Positions 37,701-51,191 of a stretch of DNA of 64,000 nucleotides are shown piece by piece. The stretch spans positions 1 through 64,000 of the forward strand of contig JBGASG010000008.1 of the NCBI GenBank assembly GCA_044229845.1, read 5' to 3'. The translations under genes and the position numbers were made by a program. Each line of letters starts with the position of its first letter. Position 1 is the first letter of the stretch. The stretch is from Candidatus Obscuribacteraceae bacterium (GTDB taxonomy: Bacteria > Cyanobacteriota > Vampirovibrionia > Obscuribacterales > Obscuribacteraceae). The notes under the pieces were generated by a model. It did not search any database. It was not told the origin of the DNA and saw only the letters and a list, made by a program, of their open reading frames with translations.

Positions 37701-39062
37701 TTGACCGTTTTCGATGCCGGCTTGACCGGCGGCTCGGTGGCGAAGACCGTCACCGCCAAGACAACGCCGAATGCTGTTGCCACCGGACTCGCCACGGCAA
37801 TTAATGGCGATGCGAACCTCACAGCCATTGGCGTCACCGCCGTCGCATCTACGCCGACCACGTCTGTCTCGGTGACTAACATAACCTCCACGTCGAACAA
37901 TGCCACCACCTATACTTTTAGCCGCACCGGCTCATCCACAATTGCGCTCAGCAAGAGCGTCGGAGTGTCCCAGGCGAGCTTCAACAACATCAACGAGCTG
38001 ACTGGCATCTCCGCCGGCGGCCCAACGCGCTTCCAGGGCACCACTGACAGACCAGTTTTAACGACCATGACTGTCGCAGGCGGCGCCGTCAACATGCGCA
38101 CATCGCAGAATTTCCAGGCGACGCCGCCTTTGACCTCCGGGTCAAACAGCGTCGCCGTCAGCGCCACCGCCGGTGGCGGCAGCGGCACGACCACGAACAA
38201 TTACAAACTCGAGGTAACCGGCTCTGGCAGCCAGACCCTGACCTACGACGCCAACGGAAATATGACCAGCGACGGCACCAACTCGTACGTCTGGGATTGC
38301 GAAAATCGCCTGATTCAGATCACTTATCCCGGGATCAATAATAAATCGGAATTCACGTACGATCCAATTGGAAGAAATGTTGCCATCGTCGAGACTACTG
38401 GAGGCAGCCCGGCGACACAACAGTTCGTGTGGTTCGCTAGCCAGCGATGTGAGGAACGCGATGGGAGCGGCAATCTAACAAAGCGGTTTTTTGATGATAA
38501 GGGACAGATGAACGGAAGCACTAAGTACTTCTACGCGACAGACCATCTGGGCTCAATTCGAGAAATGACAGACAATTCCGGAGCGGTTCAGTCCCGGTAC
38601 GCTGATGATCCATATGGTCGAGCGACCAAGCTCTTAGCTTCGACTGACTCTGACTTTGGGTTTGCCGGGATGTTTGTACATGCTAGAAGCGGCAGCAATC
38701 TCACGCTCTATCGTCCATACAGCTCTGACCTTGGGAGATGGCTTACAAAAGACCCTCTTGGTGGTGCAAACGCTTACGCATACTGCCTCAATTCGCCAGT
38801 AGCTTATGTTGATCCACTGGGGCTCAGGGCCTACACCGAATCAATCGGGTTGTGTCCACCCTGCTCGCCCCCATGCGACGGAACTCCCGTGCCTCTGCTG
38901 TGCAGATTCAGATTCTCAGAGGAATATGATCCGAGATCGAACAAGTTTTATTGGTCTTCCTCTGTCTATTTCGTCGCACCAGGCAGACGTCCGGGAAGTC
39001 CCAGTATTTATTCCTGGAATCCTAACGGCGACGGAACTTGTAGCTGGCTCGGACCCACCTAG
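31740..39062 (+). CDS. Giant RHS/YD-repeat protein with N-terminal C39-like peptidase, seven inserted ~95-aa repeats and short C-terminal tip
   Basis: ATG 31740 with GAGG RBS and signal-like segment; CGPQAV...HF...EDP C39 motif; YD repeats; RHS core DHLGSIR...GRWLTKDPLG...PVAYVDPLGL; 78-aa tip. Confidence 0.9.
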   Translation: MAHQNAAFISLAITRTAHVLLLVMFTLGQSVLPVLASEPAQKLDASQMPSYGAAKPPNPIGAVSAQERSAMVTAQSSQFTLPVEADDVQLRAVRLFEEPLVPMGGSPAAGENSALAKALTLYASSSDKEDISSLQAFLKQYPHSRWSASVALNAGLLRREQGYFTEAIDLLKLSWDDSKNATLKEQQLVAQRAVSELLFVEATFGRLSEMKSGLADMGDRQILGSARERVDAVLDAVHIMEKAPQDAFLCGPQAVATLIRLSTGRPADNDSPVRQAKSTREGTNLLYVKQLADRSGLKLQVARRTTHSAELLVPCVAHFRLGHFSVLSKTANGKYFLEDPTLDRVGDIWISRKAINAETDGYFLVRAGSLPDGWEAVSDSEAEKVYGRGGAETRNEDKSHAMPMIKLSAGGVPAKSLRITRTPSNTPSPKPDPNPADNSNDDSCDSSSWAHNFEAQDFNGNWTDRPPMAVPSAFQMQAELNVSDTPLSYRLPVGLAMNFSVNYTQNEVDQPSSWTFSNLGPNWSTNFVAWVKIDASSNAVAHLRNGGVERYPYSGNPSVPYSQNLYSQATLDNPSAGVYRRLLPDGSIEVFSVSDGSGNYLLSSVISSTGQATTLQYDVNHRIQSVIDTNGNTSTFTHVSNTPGNSGFYLISGISDPFGRSCAFSYDATNTFLLSIQDQVGIVSTFAYNTGTGFITSMVTPYGTHSFETYTITAGYNFPGRGLKVTYPDGTMAVLENTLDLEIQTRYWDREAMSRYPNDPTNRIFSHCRSTRFFNEGVTTNESAVINYTKNPLESQVFMNYPGSSWPNFFGTLNHPTDTTQSNKQNLRHRFSISGTITPGDILYIKVISNVLPGGQEIIPYTVASGDTAASILQQFATLLNNDVELNKRGYYAQMFGNYLIAFSGDTYPTVAQSYTSVGATETFDYKFDGNLYSDNVNVVLGGTVTPGETISLFPAYTDNHYPVLQYVAQAGDTLESIAKKLAYDITTNTFSQQYKWSAVPRDKKIWVHCGWGGGTIYGNSTGTITVTTQSVTDQTQNLYEWNPLGYATKLTDPVGRVISKTYASNNIDLQEVRETRDGNNFLLGKWTYNSQHLPLTYLDSSGRQTSYTYNVFGQLTSVTDPLSHLSTYQYTSNATATVGGTISAGDQVNLTVTDPALSGGSRTVSYTASAGQTPAQVAAGLTTNINADTQLQALGCTGTASGAVITLKCTSVNATTYSRTVTGGVTLTLSAVAYGFLTKVTGPLQQADVTTFSWNPNGTLASSTNSRGYTLAFQYDALDRLTKTTYPDGTTEETGYQDLDPIFFTDRLGRVTQQSFDNMQQLAFSIDPLGRKTQYTWCSCGALKVLTDPAGHATTWNFDLQGRIAEKVYADGTKTSYLWEPNRSVVDVKRDALAQETQYYRDWDGTLASIQYANAVNATSAVVNVYDTHYMRMVRAQNGWGQYDYTYNNCITDPLAPPITGGGRLSGITNSVIPNSAITFQYDAEGRTTNRSINGAANSITWTYDAMNRVTQESNALGAFNFTYMNDVSPNSKGDTRLSNIAYPNGQNTKFSWFDTNRDERLRQISNQTSTSQVLSQFDYSFDPAGQITRWLQQQKTSHQGLALDYDDAGQLTGAVGSQGAGTLAPPHGNQNYYAYDPAANRTAAQVSQVQKIALSGTKTTGDIITLTVSDSGLTGGSQAVTYTTVAADTLTTIATKLAATITANSNLKNLGIDAVSSGTTITLRSKSPNLTTYTASVSGPATEKLTFGINNAVQNITVGGTAHTGDVLQVIVRDPALTGGQTTVSYTVPASPTLNSIASGLAAAINAGTGLSALAVTAAANNTVITVTSTSQNVTSYSGSVSGAGATVTLSLGQAINGSLTALVTGTKTTGDIVSVTIFDAGLSGGSKTVNYTVLAADTLTTITTGLTTAINNDTALQVIGVRASSSGTKLTLTSVSTNATTYLPSTKNSAGTALGTEKFLWGLPANGTTTAQISGTVASADVFTLTVFDAGLTGGSVAKTVTAKTTPNAVATGLATAINGDANLTAIGVTAVASTPTTSVSVTNITSTSNNATTYTFSRTGSSTIALSKSVGVSQASFNNINELTGISAGGPTRFQGTTDRPVLTTMTVAGGAVNMRTSQNFQATPPLTSGSNSVAVSATAGGGSGTTTNNYKLEVTGSGSQTLTYDANGNMTSDGTNSYVWDCENRLIQITYPGINNKSEFTYDPIGRNVAIVETTGGSPATQQFVWFASQRCEERDGSGNLTKRFFDDKGQMNGSTKYFYATDHLGSIREMTDNSGAVQSRYADDPYGRATKLLASTDSDFGFAGMFVHARSGSNLTLYRPYSSDLGRWLTKDPLGGANAYAYCLNSPVAYVDPLGLRAYTESIGLCPPCSPPCDGTPVPLLCRFRFSEEYDPRSNKFYWSSSVYFVAPGRRPGSPSIYSWNPNGDGTCSWLGPT
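38317..38332 (+). repeat. att-core-like direct repeat copy 1 (inside RHS gene)
   Basis: AGATCACTTATCCCGG identical at 43890 and 49728. Confidence 0.8.
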
Positions 39063-39091
39063 TCGCGGTCTCTCTAAAAGGACGCATCCGG

Positions 39092-39682
39092 CTAGTCAAC
39101 CTTCTTAACCGACTCCTTTGGGCTTGGAATTGTGATCGTCTGCGATGTGAAAACTTGGGAACTGGGAAGCACACTTCCCTCGGCTGTCCCCGGCATGGTA
39201 TCAACCGACGTGACTTGACTCGCCGCGGACGAGGGCTGGGCAGCGACCTGCTCGGCCCTTTTGCGGTAATGCCGCAGCAGAAGTATTGCTGCCGGAAGTG
39301 GGATGAACAGGTAAGTCGAAAGGACTATCGCCGCGCACCAAAAAGCCTTGGCGGATCTCGTTGACTTCGAACGGAAAATCCAGATAAGGTAAGCAGCCGC
39401 AACAACGATGTTCAGTAATTGCAGGGAAACTCTATAGTAACCAAACTCTGTCATTCCGGGCACAAATCGGTGTGGAAGCCCGTACAGAAGCGTCTCCAGC
39501 AGTAATAGCCATTGGGCTGCCGCGTCAAGCAGATAGAATTGAAGCCTATCGCAATCCAGGCGATCTGCAATTTGCAAAGCCAACACGGCTAGATGAAGCG
39601 GCAACAGCGTTAAGACGAGCAAGATAATCCGCGAAGGCAATCCATCCATCCGAGTCTTGTATGCAGTATTTAACAGCTTCAT
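39092..39682 (-). CDS. Membrane protein (about 4 TM), possible immunity or cargo gene
   Basis: 196 aa hydrophobic ORF convergent with the RHS tip. Confidence 0.55.
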   Translation of the reverse strand: MKLLNTAYKTRMDGLPSRIILLVLTLLPLHLAVLALQIADRLDCDRLQFYLLDAAAQWLLLLETLLYGLPHRFVPGMTEFGYYRVSLQLLNIVVAAAYLIWIFRSKSTRSAKAFWCAAIVLSTYLFIPLPAAILLLRHYRKRAEQVAAQPSSAASQVTSVDTMPGTAEGSVLPSSQVFTSQTITIPSPKESVKKVD

Positions 39683-39994
39683 TTCAGCGAAAGATAGCTA
39701 CCGACCTGGCTTCTTGAATCATGATACTCTACATTTCCGGGCATGCAAGCATTGAGGGGTTCTTCTGCTGGCTCGGGCAGGTGGGTACACCACTTTCATA
39801 CAGTTGCGGGCGCGCTGCAGCCAAGCTGTTGATTCACAAACGTGTCCATCACAATCGATCACTGTCGGAAGGAAGAGTCGCGCTAAAGGCGCCAGCATCG
39901 AATGGACCGAAGAACCTTTGCATCAGGCAAGCAATCAGTTATTATCTAATGCGGCTCGTTTATCTAGAACCCGAGGAGATAGAATAGCTCCGAG

Positions 39995-40087
39995 GCAGGA
40001 TAAAGCGATGATTTCATTTTGGCGGAAGCACCGCGGGCGGTGCGTTGCCACGGTTTCAGAGAGTACCCCACATAATGCCGGGTACCC
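39995..40087. repeat. Conserved non-coding module copy A (oriT-like)
   Basis: GCAGGATAA...GCACC-N6-GGTGC...ACGGT...AATGCCG with the same spacing as copies at 45265 and 45568. Confidence 0.65.
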
Positions 40088-40369
40088 GAGATAGGCTCCT
40101 GGTGACCGCTGAACGGCAGCCGCCCATCGCTGGTGCGTTTGCGGCACCCTTTACCCGGCTTTCTCTTCCTGTCACCGCATACGCCTCGCTAGCTACAGCA
40201 CTCCGACACTATATGTGGTGGCATTCCGGGAACCATCGGCCTTTTCCTGCGTCATCGGAAACTGATGAGTTTACTCGTCATCTCTCCTCGCCCTCATTTT
40301 GAGGAGCCCCTGCAAGCGAATTGCTTGCATCAATGTCCAAGCGCAAAGCGCGCGTGTTCAGAGGTATGA

Positions 40370-40765
40370 ATGCGTTTACCCCAATTCTGTGTTCGCTTCC
40401 CAAAGGAGATGGCAGAAGAAGTCACCCGACTGGCGAAAGCGAACAGGCTCACCCCCGCAGAGATGGTTCGTGAATTGGTCCGCGACGGAATCGTCGCCCG
40501 GGCCGAGGCAACCACCAACTCCCAATTCGCCTACGTAGAGAAGCGTCTGCGGCGAATGGAAGACCGATTTGCTGGCTGGATGATCAAACTCAGTAAAGCC
40601 ATCGCCCAGGTCTTGTTCTTCACCGAGCAGCTCGCGCTGTACGAGGTTGATGAGAAGGACCAAATAGCATTGAAGCAATTGGCGCAAAGCTTCGCGAGGC
40701 AATTTCTGCAACAAAAGACCTCCAGCCATCTAAAAGATGACCAGGAGCATCTGGACCAGGAATAG
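40370..40765 (+). CDS. Ribbon-helix-helix (CopG/MobC/TrwA-like) protein
   Basis: QFCVRFP beta strand plus two helices (EEVTRLAK...AEMVRELV); close paralog at 45914. Confidence 0.75.
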   Translation: MRLPQFCVRFPKEMAEEVTRLAKANRLTPAEMVRELVRDGIVARAEATTNSQFAYVEKRLRRMEDRFAGWMIKLSKAIAQVLFFTEQLALYEVDEKDQIALKQLAQSFARQFLQQKTSSHLKDDQEHLDQE

Positions 40766-40959
40766 CAAGCCGGAGGAGACCAGGGAACGCGTACCGCGCA
40801 CTCAACGTTGCGCAAGGGTGATTCGAATGGCTCAAATCCGGCAATTAGCCTGACGTTGCGCGGTTCCACATCACGCCGTCGGAAATGGACCTTCTGGAGG
40901 TAGCGCGCCTGCGCTCTTATATTGAACTTGACAGCTTTGATATGTGGTTAGGTAATTAT

Positions 40960-41110
40960 TGAGAGATCGGAGAGAGGAGAGTAAACCGAGCCTGCGCCCA
41001 GTGCAAAACCTGTCATATGGAGATTTGCGACTCTCCTCTCACCGCAGCAATAGTCTAACCCGAGGGAAATCTTTGGTCACGTTCGTGAAACCGTATAAGA
41101 GCTTCGGATA
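40960..41110 (+). ncRNA. IS110 bridge RNA (target- and donor-binding loops); ends approximate
   Basis: 11-bp stem 40972-82/41030-40 enclosing CTGCGCCC and ATGGAG; second stem enclosing GGGAAATCT and TATAAG; these match the flanks and element ends. Confidence 0.75.
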
Positions 41111-41153
41111 AGGCCGCTGCTTCGATCCGCACACTACAATAGAAAGAGGTTCT

Positions 41154-42137
41154 ATGAAGGTTCCAGCTGGTGCGGATATATCCGAACCATGGTTTGACAT
41201 TTGCGTTCTACCACCAAATGGTAAAGCACTTTCCGAGCGCTTTGCGCGAAATGCTCATGGACTTCGAGCCTGTGTCAAATGGCTTGAAGAGAACGGCATT
41301 CAGAGTATCGACTTAGTCATCGAACCGACCGGGCGATACGGTGAAATCGTTGCTGAGTATTTTTCATAAACGCAAGACGCGCGTCTTTGGCGCAGCCGCT
41401 CAAGTTTTCGAAGTACGCTGAATCACACGAGATTCGCATTCGTTCTGATCGGAAGGCAGCGTACCTGCTCGCAGAATACTGCAAAGAGCGTTCTGACAAA
41501 CTTCCTCAGTGGCAGCCAAAGACGAACTTAGAGTGGGAGCTGAGAGACACGGTAGTATTGATTCGTTCGCTGACAAAGCGAACTGTGGCAATCCGATGCC
41601 TTGCATGTGGACTCCGCTCCAAGTTTGTGAAACAGCAGCTCGAAGCCGAGTTGGCGATGGCGGGAGTCTAATTTAGAGCAAACCCTGGGGCGGGCCAAAG
41701 AGCTAATCGGTCAACACCCTGTTCTGAGCAACGATTTCACGCTCTTGTGCACGATCCCTGGAATAGCTGACAGATCAGCGGTCACCCTACTCACGCTTAT
41801 TGATTTCCGGCGCTTTCGTTCAAGTCGGTCTTTAGCATGCTTTCTCGGATTGACCAGCCGAAAACACGCATCAGGAATATCAGTGAGAGAAAAGGATCGT
41901 ATTTCTAAACGAGGAAGTGCGGCAGTTAGGGGAGCTTTATTCATGCCGGCACGCGCCGCGCGAGTACACAATCCCCAGATCAGAGAATTCTCTGAACGCC
42001 TTCTTGCGCAAGGAAAGCACGACTTCACGGTTCAGATGGCGGTGATCCGCAAGCTCGTGGTGACAGCTTGGTCCGTCATCCACAGCCAAACAGCTTGGGA
42101 CGCAAACCACGTAAACCCACACTTCAAAGCGTCTTAG
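41154..42137 (+). pseudogene. IS110 family recombinase, doubly frameshifted
   Basis: Three ORF pieces: GADIS..VIEPTG; RSDRKAA; TIPGI...FLGL...SG...ISKRG. Confidence 0.9.
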
Positions 42138-42266
42138 TTCGACATCGAAGTGCACTGAATACGGTGCCAGTTGCTTCGCAACTGGCGAACTTGTTTGCGC
42201 GCGTTCACCAGATTGACATTTGACGGGAAATCTCCATGCCGGCTAAAGCCGAGCAGCGGACCCCTC

Positions 42267-42318
42267 CTGTCAAGGCTAAACCCCTTCGGGGTGTCTGCTG
42301 CGCAGCCAGCCTTGACAG
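42267..42318. other. Branched hairpin upstream of integrase
   Basis: CTGTCAAGGCT/AGCCTTGACAG 11-bp stem enclosing ACCCCTTCGGGGT and GCTGCGCAGC. Confidence 0.55.
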
Positions 42319-42506
42319 CAGGAACCCGGTCCGCCGCTATTCCGCATGGGGGCATGGCGACTTGGCGCGGATTTTTCTGAAAGCAAAAAACAGCAAACCT
42401 CGGAAAGCCACATCCAATCAGCCATAGCAGAAGCAATTTTTGCTCAAGTCGTCGACATAGTGACGACACAACTTTACAAACACCCCCAAAATTCAAAGGC
42501 GAAAGA

Positions 42507-43748
42507 ATGCCCAAATTGACCCAAAAGTTTGTGAACGAAGTAGAACCCCCGGAGCGAGGTCAGAAGATCTACCGGGACACCGTGCTTGTCGGTCTTGCGT
42601 TACGCGTCACTCCCGGAAGCAAGACGTATGTCGTTGAGGCGCGAGTAAATGGTGTCGCCAGAAGAATCACTCTGGGCAAAAATGGCCCGCTGACTCCTGC
42701 CACGGCCCGAAAGAAAGCGCGCAAGATTCAAGCGATGATGGCGGCAGGCAAAGACCCCATGGTCGAGAGAGCGAAGAAAAAGACCATCGGTGTCACCCTG
42801 CACGACATCCTTGAGCAGTTCTTGTCGGTGAGAAATCTGAAGCCGAACACGACCCGGTGTTACCGATATATGGTGACGCGCTGTCTGCGCGACTGGCTAG
42901 ATCTGCCGGTGGTTTCAATCACGCGGGACATGGTAGAGCAGCGACACTCGGACCTGCGCAGGACGACGAGGCAAGGCACATCGGGGGAGGCGCAAGCGAA
43001 CACCGTGATGCACATGCTTGGCACGCTGCTGAACTTCGCTGCAGCCAACTACGACATCGACGAAAAACCCATCATCTTATATAACCCGGTCAAGCGGCTG
43101 TCACAAAATCGCCGCTGGTATCCAGAGCGCAGGCGACAAACGGTGATCCCGGACCACAAGCTGCCAGACTGGTATCAAGTCGTTGTGTCGCTCCGGCACC
43201 CCACCATCAGAGATTACCTTCTGCTCTTACTCTTCACGGGCTTGCGTCGCAATGAAGCCGCCACACTGCGGTGGGCTGATATCGATTTCGAGTCGAAGGT
43301 TTTGACCATTCGGGCGGAGATTGCGAAGAACGGAAAGGAACACCGCCTGCCGTTAAGCGATTTCCTCGAAGATCTGTTGAAGCGACGGCACGCGGAACGC
43401 GGGGATGCAGAGTATGTGTTTCCCGGACGCAGCGCCAAGCGCCACATCGTCGACTCGGACCATGTGATCAGTGGAGTGGCACAGAAGGCCGGTTGCCCAT
43501 TCACCCTCCACGATCTGCGCAGAACCTTCCTCACCGTCGCCGAGCGACTGGCACTTTCATACGTGGTTTTGAAGAAGCTCGCCAACCACTCGGGAAGGAA
43601 CGACACCACGTTCGGTTATCTTGTAGTCGACGTGGAAAGACTGCGTGAACCCATGCAAAAGATCACCAACGAGTTTGTGGCTATGTGCAAGGCGAAAGAA
43701 ACAGAGAAAGCCTCGGCAAATCCAACCGACGTCCAGGAAGCTCAGTAG
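42507..43748 (+). CDS. Tyrosine integrase with N-terminal arm-binding domain
   Basis: KLTQKFV...GLALRV...RRITLG arm domain; catalytic TGLRRNE, KN, HDLRR, NHS and GY all present. Confidence 0.95.
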   Translation: MPKLTQKFVNEVEPPERGQKIYRDTVLVGLALRVTPGSKTYVVEARVNGVARRITLGKNGPLTPATARKKARKIQAMMAAGKDPMVERAKKKTIGVTLHDILEQFLSVRNLKPNTTRCYRYMVTRCLRDWLDLPVVSITRDMVEQRHSDLRRTTRQGTSGEAQANTVMHMLGTLLNFAAANYDIDEKPIILYNPVKRLSQNRRWYPERRRQTVIPDHKLPDWYQVVVSLRHPTIRDYLLLLLFTGLRRNEAATLRWADIDFESKVLTIRAEIAKNGKEHRLPLSDFLEDLLKRRHAERGDAEYVFPGRSAKRHIVDSDHVISGVAQKAGCPFTLHDLRRTFLTVAERLALSYVVLKKLANHSGRNDTTFGYLVVDVERLREPMQKITNEFVAMCKAKETEKASANPTDVQEAQ

Positions 43749-43783
43749 AAGCGCTTTTCGCGCACAGGCAAATTTTTCTTGTT

Positions 43784-43906
43784 GTCGACACTGTGGCGAC
43801 AACGATCACAAGGATCCGTTTCATCCGTTTCTTGCATTGCCATCTCCGTGTGGCATCCGCACCACCCACGGTGCCAACGAGTTTTAGAAAGATCACTTAT
43901 CCCGGA
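43784..43906 (+). repeat. attR-like site copy 2 (arm repeat, palindrome, core)
   Basis: GTCGACACTGTGGCGACA, GCACC-N6-GGTGC, TAGAAAGATCACTTATCCCGGA; homologous to 49623-49744. Confidence 0.75.
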
Positions 43907-44842
43907 ACGAATAATAAGACAGAGTTCATCTACGCGCCAATGGAGGGAATTGCGAAAATTGTGGAGACGGTCAGCGGCAGCGTGACCAGTACGAAGCAGT
44001 TCCCGGGAGGAGAAGAACGCGACGGTAGCGGTGCTGTGACCAAGCAGTTCTTTGCCCAAGGACAGAGAAATGGCTCTACCAACTACTTCTATAGTCGCGA
44101 CCACCTCGGCTCGGTCCGCACAATGACGGACAACAGCGGTGTTTCTGCATCTGATCGAACTTTCGACCCCTATGGACGGATAACCGTCCTTAGCGAAAGC
44201 ACGGCGCCTGATTTTGGATTCGCGGGAATGTATGTCCACAGCAGGAGCGGACTTAATTTGACGACCTTCAGAGCTTACAATCCGGCCATTGCGCGATGGA
44301 TCAACCGAGACCCTCTGGGCGAAAGGGGCGCACTGAATGCGTATGGTTATGCGGATGGCAATCCCGTCAGCTTCGTTGACAGACTGGGACTCTTCACATT
44401 TGATGCCAAAGCATGCGCTGAGATAGAGAAATTTCTGAAATTCATGGCGGACATGTCTCGGGCAACAGGCAGAGAAGTTGGTGCAGGGTTTAACTACAAC
44501 AACGGTGTGCCAGAATTTCTGCAAGGACCACCCCATCTTGGAACAAGCAATCACGTTGATATTGAGGCGTGGACCTCTGGCGTGGCAATGACGCACGTAA
44601 TCGGTGATCCCGGACCCATGGGCTTTCTCAACGTTCCGCTTTGGGACAATTCAGGGTTCAATCAGAGTGACTATCAATTCTCTTTGAACTCGGCTCAACA
44701 AATCTGGACCATGAATGGCTCCGGCAACCTCTTTGTACTAGAAAGAGGGCAGCTGTACCAGATACAAGCGGGGTGCAACAAGTGTGAGTTCAGGGGAGCT
44801 GGACCGAAGGGCGACCCGGCAATTCACCGGCCAGTCCCCTAA
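43888..44842 (+). pseudogene. Orphan RHS core plus alternative toxin tip (JAB/DUF4329-like), no evident own start
   Basis: Homology to the main RHS begins exactly at ITYPG; DHLGSVR, RWINRDPLG, PVSFVDRLGL; tip has REVG...TH...FNQSD. Confidence 0.8.
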
Positions 44843-44921
44843 TAAGCGTGCCCTTGCGGGAAACCGTGTTGCGCTGACGCAGAATTTGTGCGATCTGTAC
44901 TACCCAGGGACTAAGGTGCGT

Positions 44922-45158
44922 ATGAAAGTCAAGAAAAAAACGGTGACTATCGGGTGCGTGGGACTGCTCATGGGTGGCATCGGGTTTCTGACGTCCGTAT
45001 ACATCCAAGAGGAGCATATTCCACCTGATAATCCACCTCCTGGTTTTAGGAGGTATCGTCGTACGCCTTTGCTGCACACTGTCATCGACAACATCACCAT
45101 CAATTCTGCTTCATTCGTTGCAAGAGGCATCAGTGCTTTGCGCTCCTCCGACAACTGA
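44922..45158 (+). CDS. Small single-TM protein, candidate immunity for tip 2
   Basis: MKVKKKTVTIGCVGLLMGGIGFL...; directly downstream of the orphan tip. Confidence 0.4.
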   Translation: MKVKKKTVTIGCVGLLMGGIGFLTSVYIQEEHIPPDNPPPGFRRYRRTPLLHTVIDNITINSASFVARGISALRSSDN

Positions 45159-45264
45159 AGATAGATCAGAACCAGGTAGGAAGAGATCGTCGCATCGGCG
45201 ACAGAATAAGCGCCTTGCGCGTCTCACATTGTTGGTCTCATTTACTCGTGAACTAGCTGCCCGG

Positions 45265-45357
45265 GCAGGATAAACAAGTGCTAGCAAACGGGCGCAAAGC
45301 ACCACGAGTGGTGCCTTTTCACGGTAGCATCGACGTTCGCCGTGAATGCCGCATACC
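45265..45357. repeat. Conserved non-coding module copy B (oriT-like)
   Basis: CCGGGCAGGATAA...GCACCACGAGTGGTGC...AATGCCG. Confidence 0.65.
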
Positions 45358-45567
45358 CGCAATCAAGTTGCACTCGGCACTGGGATAGCCACACGTCTAA
45401 ATACGACGATTCGTATGGAGTTGGCACGCCAGTGTTCTATAGTTACACTGACAAAACTGGATTGCACGACTAGATAACATCGGAGTAAATCATGGCCTGG
45501 ATAGCGTACTTCTTAGTTGGAAGCAAGCCGGATGCGCGCAAGTTCTGCCAATTACGAGGCGAGCATA

Positions 45568-45659
45568 GCAGGATAAGAGGATGATACCAAATGGCGGAAA
45601 GCACCACGGGCGGTGCCTTTCGACGGTATCGTCCACGCCCTACACGAATGCCGCAGACC
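45568..45659. repeat. Conserved non-coding module copy C (oriT-like)
   Basis: GCAGGATAA...GCACCACGGGCGGTGC...AATGCCG; homology to copy A continues to the RHH start. Confidence 0.65.
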
Positions 45660-45913
45660 TAAAAGCATCGCGTAGTCAGTGCGGCACGGCAGTCGCCCAT
45701 CACTAGTGCCTTTCCGGGTTCCATTGCTCTAGCTTTCTTACCCTTGCGGATGTTATCTCACACCATATATGGTGGCTTCGAGGGAACAAATCTCGCCGAT
45801 ATGCTTCAATGGTAATGGCGAGTTACTCGCCGAAACTCCCTCGGGAGTTCCCTGCAAGCTCCTTTGCTTGCGTCAACGTCCAAGTGCAATAGCACGTGCC
45901 CTTTGAGGTATCA

Positions 45914-46303
45914 ATGCGTTTACCCCAGTTTTGCGTTCGCTTCCCGCCAGAGATAGCTGAAGAAGTCTATCGGCTAGCGAAGGCGAACGGCGTCTCACAG
46001 TCCGACATGATTCGGGATCTGGTGCGCGACGGAATCATCGTCCGCGCAGAGGCCACCACGAATTCTCAATTCCAGTACGTAGAGCAACGCCTGCGTCGAA
46101 TAGAAGAACGCTTTGCCGGCTGGATGATCAAGCTTAGCAAAGCGACCGCCCAGACCTGGTTTTTCACAGAGCAACTCGCACTCTTCGAAGTGGATGAGGA
46201 GGACCAGATAGCATTGCGGCGAGCAGCAGAAAGGTTCATGAGCCAATTTCTGCAAATAAAGACCGCTCGCTATGAGCGGGAGCATCCAGTCCAGGACGAA
46301 TAG
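45914..46303 (+). CDS. Ribbon-helix-helix protein, paralog of 40370-40765
   Basis: MRLPQFCVRFP...RAEATTNSQF.YVE.RLRR.E.RFAGWMIKLSKA shared. Confidence 0.75.
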   Translation: MRLPQFCVRFPPEIAEEVYRLAKANGVSQSDMIRDLVRDGIIVRAEATTNSQFQYVEQRLRRIEERFAGWMIKLSKATAQTWFFTEQLALFEVDEEDQIALRRAAERFMSQFLQIKTARYEREHPVQDE

Positions 46304-46439
46304 ACCAGAGGAAGCGTGTGCGTCCGGTAGTCCACGTCGTGGGAATTTGTGCAGGGGTGTGGTTTGCTAATTGCACATGCGGCGCGGCTAGTTCGAAGCT
46401 ACGAAAAGCGCTTGCACACCGAGTCACTGAGGGCAAGTC

Positions 46440-46913
46440 GTGGCACGAGCAAGAAGAACAGATACAACGCACAACACCAACAGCGAACTTTTAACACGGA
46501 ATGAAGCTGCCCAGTATCTAGGCGTTTCTCCTAACACATTGGCGATCTGGAGTTGCACCGGGCGGTACGACTTACCCTTCGTGAAAGTTGGTCGGCTTGC
46601 AAAATACCAGAGGTCAACACTGGATCATTTCCTGCAGCGGCGCACGAAACACTGGGACGGAACGGAAACCGGGCGTGCAGACCGGCCTTGTGTAGCACCA
46701 GCATACACACCGTCTAAAAAAGCGCCCGCCGTGCGGCCGCAAGAGGTCGAATTTCGGGAAGTGAGGCTGGTCGAGCCACGCAGAGAAGAGGACCTGCCTC
46801 CATCGAACGGTGTGCTGGAAATCGCTCTACCCAGTGGTATCACTCTTCGACTGCCGGCAGGTTGTTCTCCGGACTTTCTCGCTTCGGTAATCGCCACATT
46901 GGAGAAATCGTAG
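46440..46913 (+). CDS. IS66 OrfA-like protein with N-terminal excisionase-type (HTH_17) domain
   Basis: LLTRNEAAQYLGVSPNTL..W...PFVKVGR..Y fused to FREV...LEIALPSGITLRL TnpA-type C-terminus. Confidence 0.75.
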   Translation: MARARRTDTTHNTNSELLTRNEAAQYLGVSPNTLAIWSCTGRYDLPFVKVGRLAKYQRSTLDHFLQRRTKHWDGTETGRADRPCVAPAYTPSKKAPAVRPQEVEFREVRLVEPRREEDLPPSNGVLEIALPSGITLRLPAGCSPDFLASVIATLEKS

Positions 46914-47320
46914 TGTTCAATTTGTCACCATCGGTGCGCATTTTCGTTTGCACAAAGCCGGTCGACATGCGGCGTTCGTTCGACGGGCTGTTCGGGCTTG
47001 TTCAGACGCTGGTGCACCAAGACCCGTTTTCTGGATCGCTCTTTCTCTTCCGCAGTCGACGCGGCGACTTCATCAAAATTCTCTGGTGGGACCTCGACGG
47101 ATTTGCCATTTTTGCAAAGCGTCTCGAAGTCGGAACATTCCGTTTTCCAGAAGTGCGGTTCGTGAACGGCGAGTATGAAGCACTGGAGATGGAACGATCC
47201 GACCTTCTCCTGCTTCTGGAGGGCATCGACACCGATTCTGTGAAGAGACTGAAGCGCTACCGCCGGAAAAGCCCGGGATCAAGCCAAAAGTCCACCCCAA
47301 AAGTACCCGCCGTGAGGTGA
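46913..47320 (+). CDS. tnpB: IS66 accessory protein TnpB
   Basis: PVDMRRSFDGL, DPFSG.LFLF, KILWWD.DG....KRLE.G.F. Confidence 0.95.
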   Translation: MFNLSPSVRIFVCTKPVDMRRSFDGLFGLVQTLVHQDPFSGSLFLFRSRRGDFIKILWWDLDGFAIFAKRLEVGTFRFPEVRFVNGEYEALEMERSDLLLLLEGIDTDSVKRLKRYRRKSPGSSQKSTPKVPAVR

Positions 47321-47502
47321 GCAAACATCCGATCGCCATCTGGTGGCACTTCCGAGAAACGAGGAGTAAAACATAATAGAATTTTCCAAGACGCTGGCCG
47401 GCAATGTCGCCACCATTGGCGGTGCAATACAGATCAGTCAGATCTAAGCTGCAAAATACGGTCCCGAGTAGTACCATATACGGTATCACCCAGGTATTTG
47501 CC

Positions 47503-49048
47503 GTGCCAAAATCCGAAGATTCCGAAAATACGCGCCTCAGAAAAGAAAATGCCCGGCTCCAAAAGTCGCTGGACCGCATGGAGAAGCAGCTCCAAGAAGC
47601 CAATGACGCCAACAAAGAGCTGCGCGCGCTCATGAAGGATCTCCAGGAAAAACTCGACATCCTTATCGTCCAATTCAAAAAACGGAATCGCAAGGACTTT
47701 GGCAACAAGACTGAACGACACAATCCGCGGCCGGCACTCGCTGACGAATTGTCTCCTCTGACTGCTAAGGAAAAGTCGACTCCAAAACCACGCAATCACA
47801 TCAAGCACATTCTCTCGCAGAACCTTCCCCCTGAGATTGTTCCGCACACCGTTAAGCCGGAAGATGCAACCTGTCCCTACTGCATCGTTGACACCGTTTT
47901 CGTCGGCACCGAAGTGACCCACCAGTTGGAGCGCTTGACTCAAACGCTTAAACATCTGCAGCATGAGCAGGAAGTTCGGGCGTGCCCGAAGTGTAGGAAG
48001 TACATCGTCACTGCAGAAAAACCTTGTTCGCCAATTCCCGGCAGCTACGCCGGACCGGGACTGCTCGCGGACGTCTGTGTGAACAAACTTGCAGACGGGC
48101 TTCCAAACTACAGACAGGAGAAAAGATACAAACGCGAAAGTGCCACCATACCACGGTCCACTCAAAGTGATTGGATGCTGGCTGCCTCGTTTACTGTTGA
48201 GCCCTCTGTACGATCTCGTTACTCGACGCCTGCTCCTTTCTCGCGTAATACAGACGGACGACAGCGAACTTAAGGTCCAGGACCGGAAGCACAAGCGAAA
48301 AATGCGCAAAGGCAAAATGACTGTTTACCGCGGGGATGAGAATCACAGGTTTGTAGCCTTCGATTTCTCTCCCGATCAAACCTTCGCCAGGAACATTGCA
48401 TTCCTCGAACAGTTTGTCGGCATCGTACAGGCCGACGCCGCAAAGGGCTTCGACAAGCTGTACGAGGATGGCACCAAAGTCGAGGCCGGTTGTAACGCCC
48501 ATTCGCGCAGGAAGTACTACGAAGCGCTGGTGATTGATCCTCAAAGCTGCAACCCGATCCTGGACATCTATCACGCACTTTACGACATCGAAGCAGAGAT
48601 CAAGACACGGAGTCCTGCGGAGAAGCTGGCTGAGCGACAAGCACGATCGAAGCCACTCGTTGGGCAGCTTCACGCCCTGGTTCTCTCTCTTAGTGAGAAA
48701 TTGAACCCGAAACATCCAGTCATGCGCGCCGTCCAGTACACACTCACTCACTGGCAGGCGCTCACTCGTTTTCTCGAAGATCCTGCCATCAATATCGACA
48801 ACAACGCCGCCGAGCGAGAAATCAAAGACTTCGTGATTGATCGAAAGAATTTCCTGTTCGCAGGCTCGGACGCTGGCGGTAAGTCGATTGCCATTCTCCT
48901 GACTCTCATTGCCTCTGCGAAGCGCAACAAGATCGACCCACGTGCATACCTCACCGACGTGTTTACGCGCATCAACTCCATGAAGACCAGCGAGCTTGAG
49001 CAGCTTCTTCCGGACCGGTGGACGCCAAACCAAAACAAAGTCTCCTGA
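47503..49048 (+). pseudogene. tnpC: IS66 transposase TnpC, frameshifted near 48205
   Basis: Coiled coil, CPYC/CPKC, LPNYRQ; second frame QTDD, QAD, CNAHSRRK, IDNNAAER, LLP..W. Confidence 0.9.
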
Positions 49049-49114
49049 ATTTCGCTACCTCAGGAAACCACGCCCCACCTTAATTTTCCAGGACGTGAAG
49101 AACCGGACGCACAC

Positions 49115-49164
49115 TCTATCTCTTCCAAATCGAGTTCGGCAGCAGAAGTGATGAGGAGCTTCAC
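49115..49164 (-). pseudogene. ParE/RelE toxin N-terminus truncated by IS66
   Basis: GTG at 49164 gives MKLLITSAAELDLEEI, cut at the IS66 right end. Confidence 0.6.
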
Positions 49165-49172
49165 GTTGAACT

Positions 49173-49391
49173 CTACAGTCTTGACTGAGCTTTTTTGCGC
49201 AGTTTTGCGAGCACTTCCTCGGCTGGCTTCAATTCACCACGGTCCGCAGCGGCAATGCCCTTCTGTATGTCTCGGCGAAAATCCTCAGCCCTAAGCTCTC
49301 GCATCAACTGTTCACGTTCTTCCGGGGACAGCTGATCTACCAGTTTCAAAACCTGGTCGACGGTTGGTCTTTTGTTTCGAGATTGAGTCAT
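49173..49391 (-). CDS. ParD-like/addiction-module antitoxin
   Basis: QLSPEEREQL...RRDIQKGIAAADRGELKPAEEVLAKL; precedes the parE remnant. Confidence 0.7.
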   Translation of the reverse strand: MTQSRNKRPTVDQVLKLVDQLSPEEREQLMRELRAEDFRRDIQKGIAAADRGELKPAEEVLAKLRKKAQSRL

Positions 49392-49622
49392 GAAAACACT
49401 TCTACGAGACTTCTACAGCCTGCTGATAGTTTACCACGGCCGGACGAACGCTCTAAGAGAGGCACAGGCGCCCGATGAAGGAATCCTATGGGACTTGAAG
49501 CGTCGGAGCATCGCGGATTACCCGGGACAGGATTAGCGAGAATAGCCGCGGAAGAGAAAGAGCCAGAACCTTACGCGAGCAGTCCGAAAACGAAATCAAC
49601 GCAGATTGAATTTGCGCGACTC

Positions 49623-49744
49623 GTCGACACTGCAGCGACAGCGGTGGGACACCTCTTGATCATGCCTCGTCGGAATCCCACTCCTGGTGCGGTAGTGGCA
49701 CCACGTGCGGTGCCAGCGGATCTAGAAAGATCACTTATCCCGGA
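49623..49744 (+). repeat. attR-like site copy 3
   Basis: GTCGACACTGCAGCGACA 105 bp before core, GCACCACGTGCGGTGC, TAGAAAGATCACTTATCCCGGA. Confidence 0.75.
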
Positions 49745-49839
49745 TCATCGACGCGAGGTCGTCAACATGAATCGATTCGATCGCAGAGCCCCTCCACGCT
49801 CTGTCTCCGCGTAAAAGAGTCTCCGACTCCGCCTACTCC

Positions 49840-50352
49840 GGCAGTAAGCGATGAAACCGGAGGGTAGAAAGGCACGAAAGGTTCGAAGCGTCTAGCCACA
49901 CACAGAAGCTAAGGACCAAGGGGAGACCGGCACGGTCAGCGAAAGCAAATCATCGTACGCTCCGTAATAAGTGAATTGGTGAAAGTGGCTGTCACACCAA
50001 GCCCAAAAGGGAAGCGGGTTGGCTGCTCCACGTCCTGGGATGAGCAGCGAGGAGGCTACATTCCTGCCGGAGTATAGATGGGACCTAAACCGGTCGCTAG
50101 TCATGTTGACGGAACGCGGTAAACCTCATTGGCTCTCGCCCGTTCTGCGAGTAATCGAAGCGCAAGCAACGACTAACGCCCAGGAGGCAACGGATTCTGG
50201 AAGAAGCGAAAGCCTTGCTGGAATGGCAAGGATCGGGCTAAGCTGTTTTTGGCAAATTAAAAGTAGGCCGCGTGGCAGTCGAAAATTAGGCCACCCACCC
50301 ACCGGAGGCGGATGAACAAAGGCATATACGGCAGCTGGGCTGCCGTATATGC
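49840..50352 (+). ncRNA. Group II intron ribozyme remnant (5' domains, ends uncertain)
   Basis: Non-coding, purine-rich, with GGAACGCGGTAAACC and GAAGCGAAAGCCTTGC..GCAAGG motifs reminiscent of DII/DIII; RT fragment about 1 kb downstream. Confidence 0.5.
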
Positions 50353-50581
50353 GATGAGGGTAAGTCAGCGCGAAGCCGAACTCGTAGACAGTTTTTAGTC
50401 AGTCTTTCGCACTTTTTTGCGTCGCAAGCTTTCTTTGAAGCGATAGCTTTCGCTGTTGGCCTCAACGATGTGACAGCGATGATTGAGCCGATCAAGAACC
50501 GCGGCCGTTAGATTTTTGGTCATGAAGGCAGACGACCAATCACCAAATTCTAGGTTGGTCGTGATGATAGTAGAAATGGCC

Positions 50582-51191
50582 CCGGTTTTTTAGGCCAAGC
50601 CAAGAGATAGAAATTGCTACCCCCAAAATGCTGTAATACAGCAATCCAAGAGGAGCAAAAGAACATGCCCAGACCCTTGCGCAAGCACAACGCAGATTTC
50701 AAAGCCAAAGTGGCACTGGCTGCCATCCGCGAAGAAGGCACGCTCGCTGAACTCTCGGCAAAATATGGCGTGCATGCAACCCAGATCAACAAATGGAAAA
50801 AGGCCGTTCTGGATGGCGTACGCGATGTTTTCGATCCAAACTCAAAGTCTGTGCCGAAGGGCATGGTGCCCGAAGATGAGGTGGAAGCGTTGTACAAAAA
50901 AATTGGCAAATTGGAGGTAGAGCGCGATTTTTTGTCACGAGTGCTCGATCGCTGAGTCGAGCAGAGCGCGCCGAGCGAGTGAATAGCCAACATCAACTAT
51001 CCGTCCGTCAGCAGTGCGAGGTCCTGGACCTTAATCGGACCACGCTCTACTACGAGCCAGCAGCCCCAAGCGAAAGCACGCTCGAGCTATTGCGACGCAT
51101 CGACCGAATCTTCACGGATTCGCCGTTCTTTGGTGCGCGCAGAATTCGAGAAGCATTGCGTGATGAAGGGCAAGACGTCAGTTATCTCTGA
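50582..51191 (+). mobile_element. IS3 family remnant (left end, OrfA, truncated OrfB)
   Basis: OrfA 50665-50955; OrfB fragment LSVRQQCEVL.L.R...YY...FFGARRI. Confidence 0.85.
50665..50955 (+). CDS. IS3 family transposase OrfA (HTH)
   Basis: HNADFKAKVALAAI...AELSAKYGVHATQINKWKK...LYKKIGKLEVERDFL. Confidence 0.9.
   Translation: MPRPLRKHNADFKAKVALAAIREEGTLAELSAKYGVHATQINKWKKAVLDGVRDVFDPNSKSVPKGMVPEDEVEALYKKIGKLEVERDFLSRVLDR

What the first reader, a model, noticed from the sequence alone, without database searches (positions are those of the whole stretch)
38317..49744. Integrase-driven RHS toxin-tip exchange: tandem integrative elements targeting a site inside an RHS gene
Seen: AGATCACTTATCCCGG occurs in direct orientation at 38317 (within the RHS ORF, ITYPG codons), 43890 and 49728. 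Copies 2 and 3 extend to 22 bp and share upstream arm-like features (GTCGACAC..GCGACA 105-106 bp before the core, GCACC-N6-GGTGC about 15 bp before) that copy 1 lacks, as expected for attR versus attL. An intact arm-domain tyrosine integrase ends about 140 bp before copy 2. RHS homology of the orphan cassette starts exactly at the core and in the same frame, so excision of 38317-43889 would fuse the RHS body to a different toxin tip. Codon style looks less GC3-rich after 38330. Both units share the order tip - small membrane gene - conserved non-coding module - RHH gene. Established: orphan RHS tips are usually attributed to homologous recombination, and integrative elements often restore the 3' end of their target gene. 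Inference: a site-specific mobile element family that delivers and swaps polymorphic toxin tips; I know of no description of this. After copy 3 the frame stops in about 45 non-RHS codons, so the original tip appears lost.
Basis: partly seen in the sequence, partly recalled or inferred. Interest (0 to 1): 0.92.

Follow-up and report, generated by a model that had tools for sequence, protein, structure and literature searches.

The report
Integrase elements that swap RHS toxin tips
Small mobile DNA elements carrying their own integrase appear to plug into one fixed spot inside a giant bacterial toxin gene and replace its poisonous end with a new one, which would explain how such toxin genes collect arrays of spare tips.

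Summary
AGATCACTTATCCCGG occurs three times in direct orientation (38317, 43890, 49728). Copy 1 lies in the ITYPG codons of a 2471-aa RHS gene. Copies 2 and 3 follow homologous arm regions, and copy 2 sits 141 bp behind an intact arm-domain tyrosine integrase.

- In this genome all 6 integrase paralogs of at least 69% identity are followed by an RHS tip that starts at this codon.
- Across this genome and 64 foreign loci, 17 of 18 tips lying behind an integrase start exactly at the core. 20 of 25 tips without an integrase continue upstream into RHS body.
- One clade of integrases from uncultured Obscuribacterales has RHS tips beside 24 of 26 members; outside it the figure is 3 of 38.
- GC3 drops from 0.76 to 0.51 at the core.
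- A sister species carries a 98.6%-identical arm whose homology to the window ends at the core and is followed there by an intact tip.

- Unit 2 has no integrase; an IS66 lies in its place.
- Copy 3 is followed by a truncated group II intron.
- The hairpin is a genome-wide palindrome, not an att feature.
- The whole 23.6-kb RHS locus is missing in the sister species.

No circle or excision junction was seen. I found no published description. Interest is high.

The parts
31647..39062 (+). RHS polymorphic-toxin gene (2471 aa). The body is 31647-38315. The currently attached tip 1 is 38316-39062: about 170 aa of conserved RHS sequence ending in VDPLGL, then 78 aa of unassigned toxin.
   Evidence: Pfam RHS_repeat E 4.6e-34 and Peptidase_C39 E 4e-8; translation; no family for the last 78 aa
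38317..38332 (+). Core copy 1 (attL-like): RHS body on its left, the element's tip on its right.
38317..43889 (+). Unit 1, 5573 bp: tip 1, a candidate immunity ORF, a non-coding block, an RHH gene, an IS110 remnant, the integrase and the arm. Proposed integrative element.
   Evidence: backbone 40766-42506 is 95-97% identical to the first unit of the array on contig C3
39092..39682 (-). 196-aa multi-pass membrane ORF. Candidate immunity or accessory gene; unverified.
   Evidence: ORF list and translation; no family
39995..40369 (+). Conserved non-coding block upstream of the RHH gene, with several conserved hairpins. Function unknown.
   Evidence: 82-87% identity to copies on C1 (two) and C3, 68% to C22; alignment; alifold gave 69 pairs, 6 with compensatory change, and a covariation term of +1.13, which is inconclusive
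40370..40765 (+). RHH (Arc/CopG-like) gene of unit 1. Candidate regulator or directionality factor.
   Evidence: Pfam Arc E 5.6e-4 and RHH_1 E 1.1e-3, both just under their cut-offs; 69-97% identical paralogs in the other elements
40914..42231 (+). Degraded IS110-family insertion in the RHH-integrase spacer.
   Evidence: Pfam DEDD_Tnp_IS110 at 41154-41369 and Transposase_20 at 41745-42137; contigs in runs X2 and X12 skip 40913 to 42232
42507..43748 (+). Tyrosine integrase, 413 aa, with an N-terminal arm-binding domain and an intact catalytic set.
   Evidence: Pfam PF13356 E 1.9e-14 and PF00589 E 5.2e-18; R247/R248, K274, H335, R338, H361 and Y371 conserved in alignment A2
43749..43889 (+). Arm region between the integrase and core 2 (P-arm-like).
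   Evidence: (D12); 91% identical to the arm on C22
43890..43905 (+). Core copy 2 (junction between unit 1 and unit 2).
43889..44842 (+). Orphan tip 2 (317 aa, open frame). The conserved RHS stretch ends in VDRLGL and is followed by a 149-aa toxin part.
   Evidence: atlas lead to DUF4329 / Toxin-JAB1 clusters, score 0.92, a lead only; 31% identity to the attached tip of the C18 RHS gene
44925..45158 (+). 77-aa ORF with one hydrophobic stretch. Candidate immunity gene of tip 2; unverified.
45896..46303 (+). RHH gene of unit 2, preceded by its copy of the non-coding block (about 45540-45895).
   Evidence: Pfam RHH_1 E 6.8e-6
46313..49114 (+). IS66-family element (TnpA-like HTH, TnpB, frameshifted TnpC) sitting where unit 2's integrase would be. 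No target-site duplication.
   Evidence: Pfam; ends set by other copies in the genome and differing flanks; 4 of 5 copies in the genome lie in tip elements next to or inside the RHH gene
49115..49727 (+). Remaining right end of unit 2: a spacer holding a 72-aa antitoxin-like ORF (49173-49391, minus strand) and the arm.
   Evidence: 84% identical (83.6% over 529 bp) to the integrase-tip spacer on C22, and 99.5% over the first 184 bp; 98.6% identical to sister species G001; weak NCBIfam VapB/RelB hits
49728..49743 (+). Core copy 3 (attR-like, no tip behind it).
49745..51686 (+). Remnant of a group II intron. Its 5' end abuts the core. It is interrupted by about 0.9 kb lying between 50238 and 51330, and its RT ORF is cut at 51686.
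   Evidence: Homologs in G015 and G004 begin within 3 nt of the same position next to unrelated flanks; RT fragment 51367-51711 matches TIGR04416 at E 1.8e-18 and Pfam RVT_N at E 5e-16; no Rfam hit
31554..55119 (.). 23.6-kb block (RHS gene, both units, mobile-element debris, HipA) that is absent from sister species G001, where the flanking genes are about 33 bp apart.

Best explanation
The region is a tandem pair of small integrative elements sitting at one fixed site inside an RHS toxin gene. Each element in circular form would read: core, RHS tip (about 170 conserved RHS residues plus a private toxin domain), a small downstream gene (presumed immunity), in this genus also a non-coding block and an RHH gene, then a P4-like tyrosine integrase and an arm region of 130-170 bp leading back to the core. 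The integrase would recombine the element's core with the same 13-16 bp in the ITYPG codons of a resident RHS gene. Because the core is in the same codon phase on both partners, the RHS body becomes fused in frame to the incoming tip. The old tip, with its immunity gene, is pushed downstream as a silent orphan behind the integrase. Repeating this builds arrays, as in tandem accretion of islands at one att site. Excision of unit 1 (38317-43889) would re-attach tip 2 in frame. In this window unit 1 looks complete, with an intact integrase. Unit 2 is defective: an IS66 lies where its integrase should be, with no target duplication. The tip behind core 3 was destroyed by a group II intron and a later truncation. 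Shown: the repeats, their phase, the fixed boundary, the clade-specific linkage of integrase and tip, the compositional break, and intact orphan frames. Inferred: that the integrase catalyses the exchange, which strand-exchange region it uses, that the small genes confer immunity, and how the elements travel between cells.
For: 1. Repeats and phase.
2. Own genome: the integrase has 6 paralogs of at least 69% identity. Each is followed on the same strand by an RHS tip whose similarity starts at the core: 133-165 bp downstream in five cases, 1289 bp in one. RHS bodies at C13, C1 (two) and C3 (two) end at the same codon.
3. Fixed boundary: of 43 tip starts in this genome plus 64 foreign loci, 17 of 18 with an integrase within 3 kb upstream lack the preceding body motif WDxENR. 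20 of 25 without an integrase have it. At least 3 of the other 5 start within about 430 nt of a locus edge.
4. Other genera: arrays such as body, tip, tip, int, tip, int, tip, int, tip in G014, with units of 3.5-3.7 kb (tip, small ORF, integrase) and the core AGATCAATTAYCC at the same codons. Among foreign loci with an integrase of at least 50% identity, 12 of 13 hold a same-strand tip and 9 of 13 have it within 1.2 kb downstream.
5. Tree of 64 integrases: one 26-member clade (SH-like support 92) has RHS tips beside 24 of 26; elsewhere 3 of 38. The 18 loci labelled as other phyla have 0.
6. Integrase-free RHS locus on C18: its orphan carries about 660 aa of body, and its ITYPG DNA differs at 3-4 of 16 positions.
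7. GC3 is 0.76 before the core and 0.51 after it.
8. G001: 635 bp at 98.6% identity to 49115-49747, ending 4 nt past the core, then an intact RHS tip.
9. Catalytic residues are conserved.
10. All 21 orphan tips examined are open for 201-392 codons, one of them only to the edge of its locus.
11. Integrases on C13 and C22 are 99% identical at different loci.
Against: No direct sign of recombination was found.
- Contigs from three studies (X2, X12, X15) bridge all three junctions in the reference arrangement. No clean core-to-core joint or back-joint was listed; the only joints had sides under 30 nt. Contigs cannot show rare events.
- Two metagenome scans, one for the body-core junction and one for the arm-core pattern, found 0 records.
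- No empty allele of this RHS gene was found. In G001 the whole 23.6-kb locus is absent, so occupancy of the site itself could not be compared.
- Five foreign loci (L056, L060, L062, L064, L065) and the 48%-identity paralog on C1 show a tip upstream of the integrase but none downstream within the sequence held. Like core 3 here, they lack the 'old tip' that the model predicts.
- In G007 three orphan tips carry 22-46 extra body residues, so their boundary is not at the core.
- The hairpin cited as an arm feature is a genome-wide palindrome.
- Cores differ by one base between attL and attR at the C1 locus.
- No transfer functions are encoded, and no close relative was found on viral contigs.
Confidence: 0.8

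Rival explanations
1. This is ordinary RHS C-terminal displacement by homologous recombination, through circular intermediates as proposed for Enterobacteria. The integrase would be a passenger gene that happens to lie in the cassettes.
For: The tips share about 500 bp of conserved RHS sequence that could support RecA-dependent exchange. The C18 locus of this genome and the G007 locus show orphans with longer and variable body fragments, as that model predicts. The model is in print (PMC2935791, abstract and discussion passages read).
Against: That model predicts core fragments of variable length. Here 17 of 18 integrase-linked tips begin at the same nucleotide, in genera whose integrases are only about 50% identical. 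The linkage maps to a single integrase clade. A conserved non-RHS arm always lies between integrase and core.
Confidence: 0.07
2. This is a host-kept switching device rather than selfish mobile elements. The integrases would shuffle a resident reservoir of tips within the cell, in the manner of shufflons or integrons, with little transfer between cells.
For: Orphan frames are all intact. The genome holds about 13 core-bearing tip junctions at five or more loci. No transfer genes are present, and no copies were found on viral contigs. Arms and backbones are mosaic between loci.
Against: Most units carry their own integrase, unlike integron cassettes or shufflon segments. All repeats are direct, not inverted. 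GC3 of the tips differs from that of the body, which suggests a foreign origin. This reading overlaps with the main one; it differs in who benefits.
Confidence: 0.1
3. The pattern is a chance repeat or an assembly artefact of a metagenome-assembled genome.
For: The genome is a 22-contig, 88%-complete assembly, and contig C22 ends inside a copy of the element.
Against: 0 of 100 shuffles reach three matches. Contigs from runs of three different studies bridge each of the three junctions without differences. The architecture recurs in independent assemblies of other genera.
Confidence: 0.01

Closest known systems
Rhs C-terminal displacement arrays with orphan tips (Jackson et al. 2009, PMC2935791; abstract and discussion passages read)
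   Same: A full-length rhs gene is followed by silent tips that keep a piece of the conserved core and have their own downstream small genes. The paper postulates a circular intermediate that inserts and pushes the old tip downstream.
   Different: [quoted passage not shown] Here every unit ends in an integrase plus arm, and the boundary is fixed to the nucleotide.
Integrative elements that target a protein-coding or tRNA gene and carry a replacement 3' end
   Same: A tyrosine integrase with an arm-binding domain, a short core inside the target gene, the element supplying the sequence downstream of the core, and tandem accretion at one site.
   Different: Those elements restore the same gene product. 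Here the replacement end encodes a different toxin, so integration changes the phenotype of the target gene. Here the integrase also lies at the end of the element far from the target gene's body.
Rhs-associated integrase-like genes in bee-gut Snodgrassella and Gilliamella (Steele et al. 2017, PMC5727410; one passage read)
   Same: Integrase genes are found repeatedly next to Rhs loci, and the authors suggest they may help capture Rhs sequences.
   Different: The passage read reports no att site, no fixed junction and no element boundaries, and the authors say further work is needed. The hosts are from a different phylum. Relatedness of those integrases to this clade was not tested.
Recombinase-associated acquired interbacterial defence (rAID) arrays of Bacteroidales, and XerC/D genes beside polyimmunity loci (PMC12247911 and PMC3482391; passages read)
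   Same: A tyrosine recombinase is linked to arrays of polymorphic-toxin-related cassettes with conserved intergenic motifs.
   Different: rAID has one recombinase per array and collects immunity genes. It does not exchange the toxin end of an expressed gene.
Shufflons and invertible tail-fibre segments (Rci, Gin/Cin/Min; recalled)
   Same: Site-specific recombination swaps the C-terminal end of a surface or delivery protein.
   Different: Those use inversion between inverted repeats with a single fixed recombinase and are not mobile. Here the repeats are direct and each unit has its own integrase.

Membership tests
Tyrosine recombinase / phage integrase family (P4-like, with arm-binding domain) | C-terminal catalytic domain PF00589 | tested here: met
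   E 5.2e-18, 65.9 bits against a cut-off of 27.1
Tyrosine recombinase / phage integrase family (P4-like, with arm-binding domain) | Catalytic R..K..HxxR..H/W..Y residues | tested here: met
   R247/R248, K274, H335, R338 invariant and H361, Y371 nearly invariant in the 10-sequence alignment A2. Assignment of these residues to catalytic roles is from general knowledge.
Tyrosine recombinase / phage integrase family (P4-like, with arm-binding domain) | N-terminal arm-type DNA-binding domain PF13356 | tested here: met
   E 1.9e-14, 54 bits against a cut-off of 27
Site-specific integrative element | Direct repeats of a short core at both ends, with the integrase adjacent to one end | tested here: met
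   also L052, G014 and the C1 and C3 loci
Site-specific integrative element | Observed excision, circular form, or occupied versus empty target site | tested here: inconclusive
   No clean joint in contigs of 4 runs. 0 hits in two metagenome scans. The sister species lacks the whole locus. Raw reads were not available.
RHS / YD-repeat polymorphic toxin | RHS repeats and a conserved core end (..DPxGL) before a variable C-terminal domain | tested here: met
   PF05593 E 4.6e-34. VDPLGL in tip 1 and VDRLGL in tip 2. With a loose motif (D, then P, R, A or S, any residue, G, then L, I or M) searched in residues 120-200 of the tip, 22 of 35 tips scored a hit. Toxin parts are similar in only 3 pairs among 34 tips.
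RHS / YD-repeat polymorphic toxin | Cognate immunity gene directly downstream; known toxin fold | tested here: inconclusive
   Small ORFs follow both tips but have no family. The toxin parts have no Pfam or NCBIfam hit. Atlas gives only a lead to DUF4329 / Toxin-JAB1.
Rhs displacement by homologous recombination (Jackson model) | Orphan core fragments of variable length; no dedicated recombinase | tested here: not met
   Fixed boundary in 17 of 18 integrase-linked tips. An integrase is present in most units.
Integron / rAID-type cassette array | One fixed integrase beside an array of integrase-less cassettes; IntI-type integrase | tested here: not met
   Several integrases per array. TIGR02249 scores 22 bits against a cut-off of 265.
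Shufflon / DNA invertase system | Inverted repeats bounding invertible segments | tested here: not met
   All three cores, and those of the other arrays, are in direct orientation.

The most novel reading that the evidence does not exclude
A dedicated clade of tyrosine integrases in Obscuribacterales forms minimal (3.5-5.5 kb) 'tip-swapping' elements. Their att site is a conserved codon block of the host's own toxin-delivery gene. The element therefore borrows the host's 2200-residue delivery scaffold to express its private toxin, stays in place because its immunity gene is needed, and lets the roughly 13 core-bearing junctions per genome recombine with one another. Cells in a population could then switch which toxin is armed. 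That would be a site-specific, programmable version of Rhs C-terminal displacement.
Probability: 0.3. Interest if true: 0.92.

Novelty: new variant of a known kind. Interest (0 to 1): 0.8.

Why it matters
Arrays of orphan toxin tips behind rhs, cdiA and similar genes are widespread, but how new tips get in has stayed a hypothesis: homologous recombination with circles. [quoted passage not shown]

This locus and its relatives offer a concrete enzyme, a defined 13-16 bp site and defined element boundaries. The exchange can therefore be tested directly at the bench with an att-by-att assay.

If it is confirmed, it shows three things:
- a mobile element can use a conserved block of a toxin gene as its landing pad and rewrite the weapon's warhead in one step;
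- this gives one explanation for how interbacterial weapon repertoires change quickly;
- it provides a natural system for exchanging C-terminal domains on a very large secreted scaffold.

It would also add a protein-coding, function-changing target to the known repertoire of P4-like integrases.

Tried and rejected
- Public runs: 20 runs from 11 studies hold the stretch. Contigs of four of them were laid. No core-to-core joint, no back-joint and no support for excision appeared. The listed joints (38335 to 44012, 38474 to 44108 and others) have sides of 20-26 nt and look like paralogous tips. All data were contigs, so rare forms cannot be seen.
- One X2 contig joins an integrase 3' end (about 90% identical), then 691 unmatched nt, then 49115-49391 exactly. 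I read it as a C22-like or ancestral form of unit 2 that still has its integrase, but this is not proof.
- Metagenome scans for the body-core junction and for the arm-core pattern gave 0 records each.
- Viral contigs hold only integrases of at most 34% identity.
- Rfam found nothing in the whole window or around the intron remnant. There are no tRNA genes in the window. Only 1 of 22 related loci has a tRNA close in front of the integrase, so a tRNA-targeting ancestry could not be shown.
- The hairpin as an att-specific arm site is rejected: the palindrome occurs 326 times genome-wide against 24 for a reversed control.
- A structured-RNA reading of the conserved non-coding block is inconclusive.
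- The toxin domains and small ORFs have no Pfam or NCBIfam family. The atlas gives only a lead.
- A repeat of the core downstream of the 48%-identity integrase on C1 was not found within 10 kb.
- No core-like sequence was seen at the borders of the 23.6-kb block or in G001's empty site.
- Earlier notes of this scan hold nothing on this genome or this integrase. Word matches were integrase-free displacement scars in other genomes.
- Literature: six full-text searches found no description of an integrase att site inside an rhs gene. Supplements were not consulted.
- Structure and complex prediction were not used.

Full report
**Observation.** The 16-mer AGATCACTTATCCCGG occurs three times, all on the + strand, at 38317, 43890 and 49728. 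The chance expectation is 0.02, and 0 of 100 shuffles reach three matches.
- Copies 2 and 3 share 22 of 22 bases. They have homologous upstream regions, with GTCGACAC..GCGACA at -106 and -105 and a GCACCAC-N4-GGTGC palindrome ending 15 bp before the core. Copy 1 is preceded by RHS coding sequence.
- Copy 1 lies in the ITYPG codons of a 2471-aa ORF (31647-39062) with RHS repeats (E 4.6e-34) and a C39-peptidase-like N-terminal domain.
- Copy 2 lies 141 bp behind a 413-aa integrase (42507-43748) with Arm-DNA-bind_3 and Phage_integrase domains. Its catalytic R, K, HxxR, H and Y positions are conserved among ten relatives.
- From copy 2 onward the frame reads KITYPG... and is 56% identical to tip 1 over about 170 residues, then diverges after the VD(P/R)LGL motif. 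The 68 codons before the core show no RHS similarity.
- In both ORFs the first base of the core is codon position 2. Loss of 38317-43889 would therefore leave the body in frame with tip 2.
- GC3 is 0.76 in the last 1800 nt of the body, 0.51 in tip 1 and 0.57 in tip 2.

**Anatomy of the two units.**
- Unit 1 (5573 bp) holds, in order: tip 1; a 196-aa membrane ORF on the opposite strand; a 375-bp conserved non-coding block; an RHH gene; a degraded IS110-family insertion, which contigs in two runs skip (40913 to 42232); the integrase; and the arm.
- Unit 2 (5838 bp) holds: tip 2 (317 aa, open); a 77-aa ORF; the non-coding block; an RHH gene; an IS66 element (46313-49114); and 613 bp of spacer and arm.
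- Unit 2 has no integrase. The IS66 has no target duplication. The spacer to its right is 84% identical (83.6% over 529 bp) to the segment that separates a 99%-identical integrase from its tip on contig C22, and 99.5% identical over the first 184 bp. I infer that unit 2 lost its integrase in an IS66-associated deletion.
- Four of the five IS66 copies in the genome lie in such elements, next to or inside the RHH gene.

**What follows copy 3.** From 49745 the sequence matches elements in at least four other genomes. In G015 and G004 these begin within three nucleotides of the same position, next to unrelated flanks. About 1.6 kb further on lies a fragment of a group II intron reverse transcriptase (TIGR04416 E 1.8e-18, RVT_N E 5e-16). 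The remnant carries about 0.9 kb of extra DNA between 50238 and 51330, and its ORF is cut at 51686. So the third tip was destroyed by a retroelement and a later truncation. In sister species G001 a 635-bp stretch 98.6% identical to 49115-49747 ends four bases past the core and is followed by an intact RHS tip.

**Is the integrase tied to RHS tips?**
- In this genome the integrase has six paralogs of at least 69% identity, on contigs C13, C22, C1 and C3 (three). All six are followed on the same strand by a tip that starts at the core: 133-165 bp downstream in five cases and 1289 bp in one.
- Full RHS bodies at five loci end at the same codon.
- Integrase homologs (E at most 1e-40) occur in 16 of 24 other genomes of the same family and in 0 of 16 genomes from other families of the class.
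- A scan of species-representative genomes returned 64 loci. Most were titled Candidatus Obscuribacterales or Melainabacteria.
- Among the 13 loci whose integrase is at least 50% identical, 12 hold a same-strand RHS tip and 9 have it within 1.2 kb downstream. The one exception is a 2.3-kb contig. None of the 18 loci labelled as other phyla holds an RHS tip.
- In a tree of 64 integrases, one 26-member clade (SH-like support 92) has tips beside 24 of 26 members. Outside it the figure is 3 of 38. The loci were found through the integrase, so these counts speak to the integrase's neighbourhood, not to RHS genes in general.

**Fixed boundary.** I examined 43 tip starts in this genome plus the 64 loci.
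- 17 of 18 tips with an integrase within 3 kb upstream lack the body motif WDxENR just before the core.
- 20 of 25 tips without an integrase have that motif. Of the other five, at least three start within about 430 nt of a locus edge.
- The boundary falls on the same codons even where integrases are only about 50% identical and the core differs: AGATCAATTAYCC in G014, AGATCGATTAYCC in several MAGs.
- G014 shows a full array: body, tip, tip, int, tip, int, tip, int, tip. Its units are 3.5-3.7 kb, each made of a tip, one small ORF and an integrase.
- The integrase-free RHS locus on C18 has an orphan that carries about 660 residues of body, and its ITYPG DNA differs from the core at 3-4 of 16 positions.
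- G007 is a partial exception. Its orphans keep 22-46 extra body residues.
- All 21 orphan tips examined are open for 201-392 codons, one of them only to the edge of its locus.
- The toxin parts are hyperdiverse: only 3 similar pairs among 34 tips. One of those pairs is tip 2 with the attached tip of the C18 gene.

**Mechanism.** The simplest account is site-specific integration. A circular element reading core, tip, immunity gene, integrase, arm recombines with the same core in a resident RHS gene. The body is fused to the new tip, and the old tip is displaced behind the integrase. Repetition gives arrays. This is the circular-intermediate model of Jackson et al., but with a dedicated enzyme and a fixed site. 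[quoted passage not shown] The catalysis, the exact crossover, the immunity role of the small ORFs, the role of the RHH protein and the route between cells are all inferred.

**Evidence against, and gaps.**
- No circle, excision junction or tip reordering was seen. Contigs from three studies bridge all three junctions as in the window, and the only joints listed have sides of 20-26 nt.
- Two metagenome scans found nothing. Viral contigs hold only distant integrases.
- In G001 the flanking kinase gene (94.6% identical protein) is followed after about 33 bp by the ortholog of window 55120 onward. The whole block 31554-55119 is therefore absent there, and no empty RHS allele could be compared.
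- Several terminal integrases have a tip upstream but none downstream in the sequence held: five foreign loci and the 48%-identity paralog on C1.
- The palindrome near the core is a genome-wide motif, with 326 hits against 24 for the control.
- The conserved non-coding block has conserved hairpins but no net covariation support.

**Prior knowledge.** Six full-text searches found no description of an att site inside an rhs gene. The nearest items are:
- Rhs-associated integrases noted without mechanism in bee-gut bacteria (PMC5727410, passage read);
- recombinase-linked immunity arrays, rAID (PMC12247911, passages read);
- XerC/D genes beside polyimmunity loci (PMC3482391, passage read);
- Rhs effectors carried as cargo of GMT islands (bioRxiv 10.1101/2023.03.28.534373, passages read).

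Supplements were not read. Comparisons with icd-targeting prophages, tandem accretion of islands and shufflons rest on recall.

**Verdict.** It is a new variant of known kinds: integrative elements that replace a gene's 3' end, and Rhs tip displacement. Interest is high because it gives a testable enzyme and site for a long-standing model.

Noticed in passing
window 31554-55119: The whole RHS locus with its array, mobile-element debris and a HipA gene is a 23.6-kb block absent from the same-genus genome G001, where the flanking kinase-LRR and 2-hydroxyacid dehydrogenase genes are about 33 bp apart. No repeat or core-like sequence was seen at the borders.
   Followed up: partly
genome-wide, e.g. 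window 43859, 45299, 45601, 49698, 57508: The palindrome GCACCA[CT]-N3-5-[GA][GAC]TGC occurs 326 times in the 5.16-Mb genome against 24 for the reversed control pattern. It is an over-represented palindromic motif of unknown role.
   Followed up: partly
window 49592-49613 and 51687-51708: There is an exact 22-bp direct repeat (GAAATCAACGCAGATTGAATTT). One copy lies in the arm of unit 2. The other lies exactly where the group II intron RT fragment is truncated. It may mark the deletion that removed the intron's 3' part and the third tip.
   Followed up: partly
window 46313-49114; G000 C3:73733-76115, C22:405740-408111, C1:1064310-1066638: Four of five IS66 copies in the genome sit in tip elements, next to or inside the RHH gene. 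On C22 and C3 they coincide with inverted or convergent element fragments, which suggests IS66-mediated scrambling of the arrays or a target preference.
   Followed up: partly
window 50565-50782 and 53943-54162; 51851-53809 (-): 220-bp direct repeats (96% identical) bracket an IS-like fragment, the RT fragment and a 652-aa HipA-like kinase gene (HipA_C E 2.8e-37) with a long N-terminal extension.
   Followed up: no
window 16092-21959 and 29458-31557: Four consecutive Ser/Thr protein kinase genes lie here, and a fifth kinase fused to leucine-rich repeats sits directly upstream of the RHS gene.
   Followed up: no
window 39995-40369 and about 45540-45895; copies on C1, C3, C22 and in G001: A 375-bp non-coding block is conserved (68-87% identity) in front of every RHH gene of the elements. 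It has several conserved hairpins, some with compensatory changes. It could be a structured RNA, an operator region or an origin.
   Followed up: partly
G000 C1:1048432-1049619 and G001 (L046): A second, 48%-identical integrase type also sits behind an RHS tip. In G001 it is followed 2.4 kb later by an arm, a core and a tip. In G000 nothing follows, so arms and integrases are mosaic between elements.
   Followed up: partly
window 43685-43888: The tip 2 frame is open for 68 codons upstream of the core, from a GTG inside the integrase's 3' end. The orphan tip could in principle be translated on its own.
   Followed up: no
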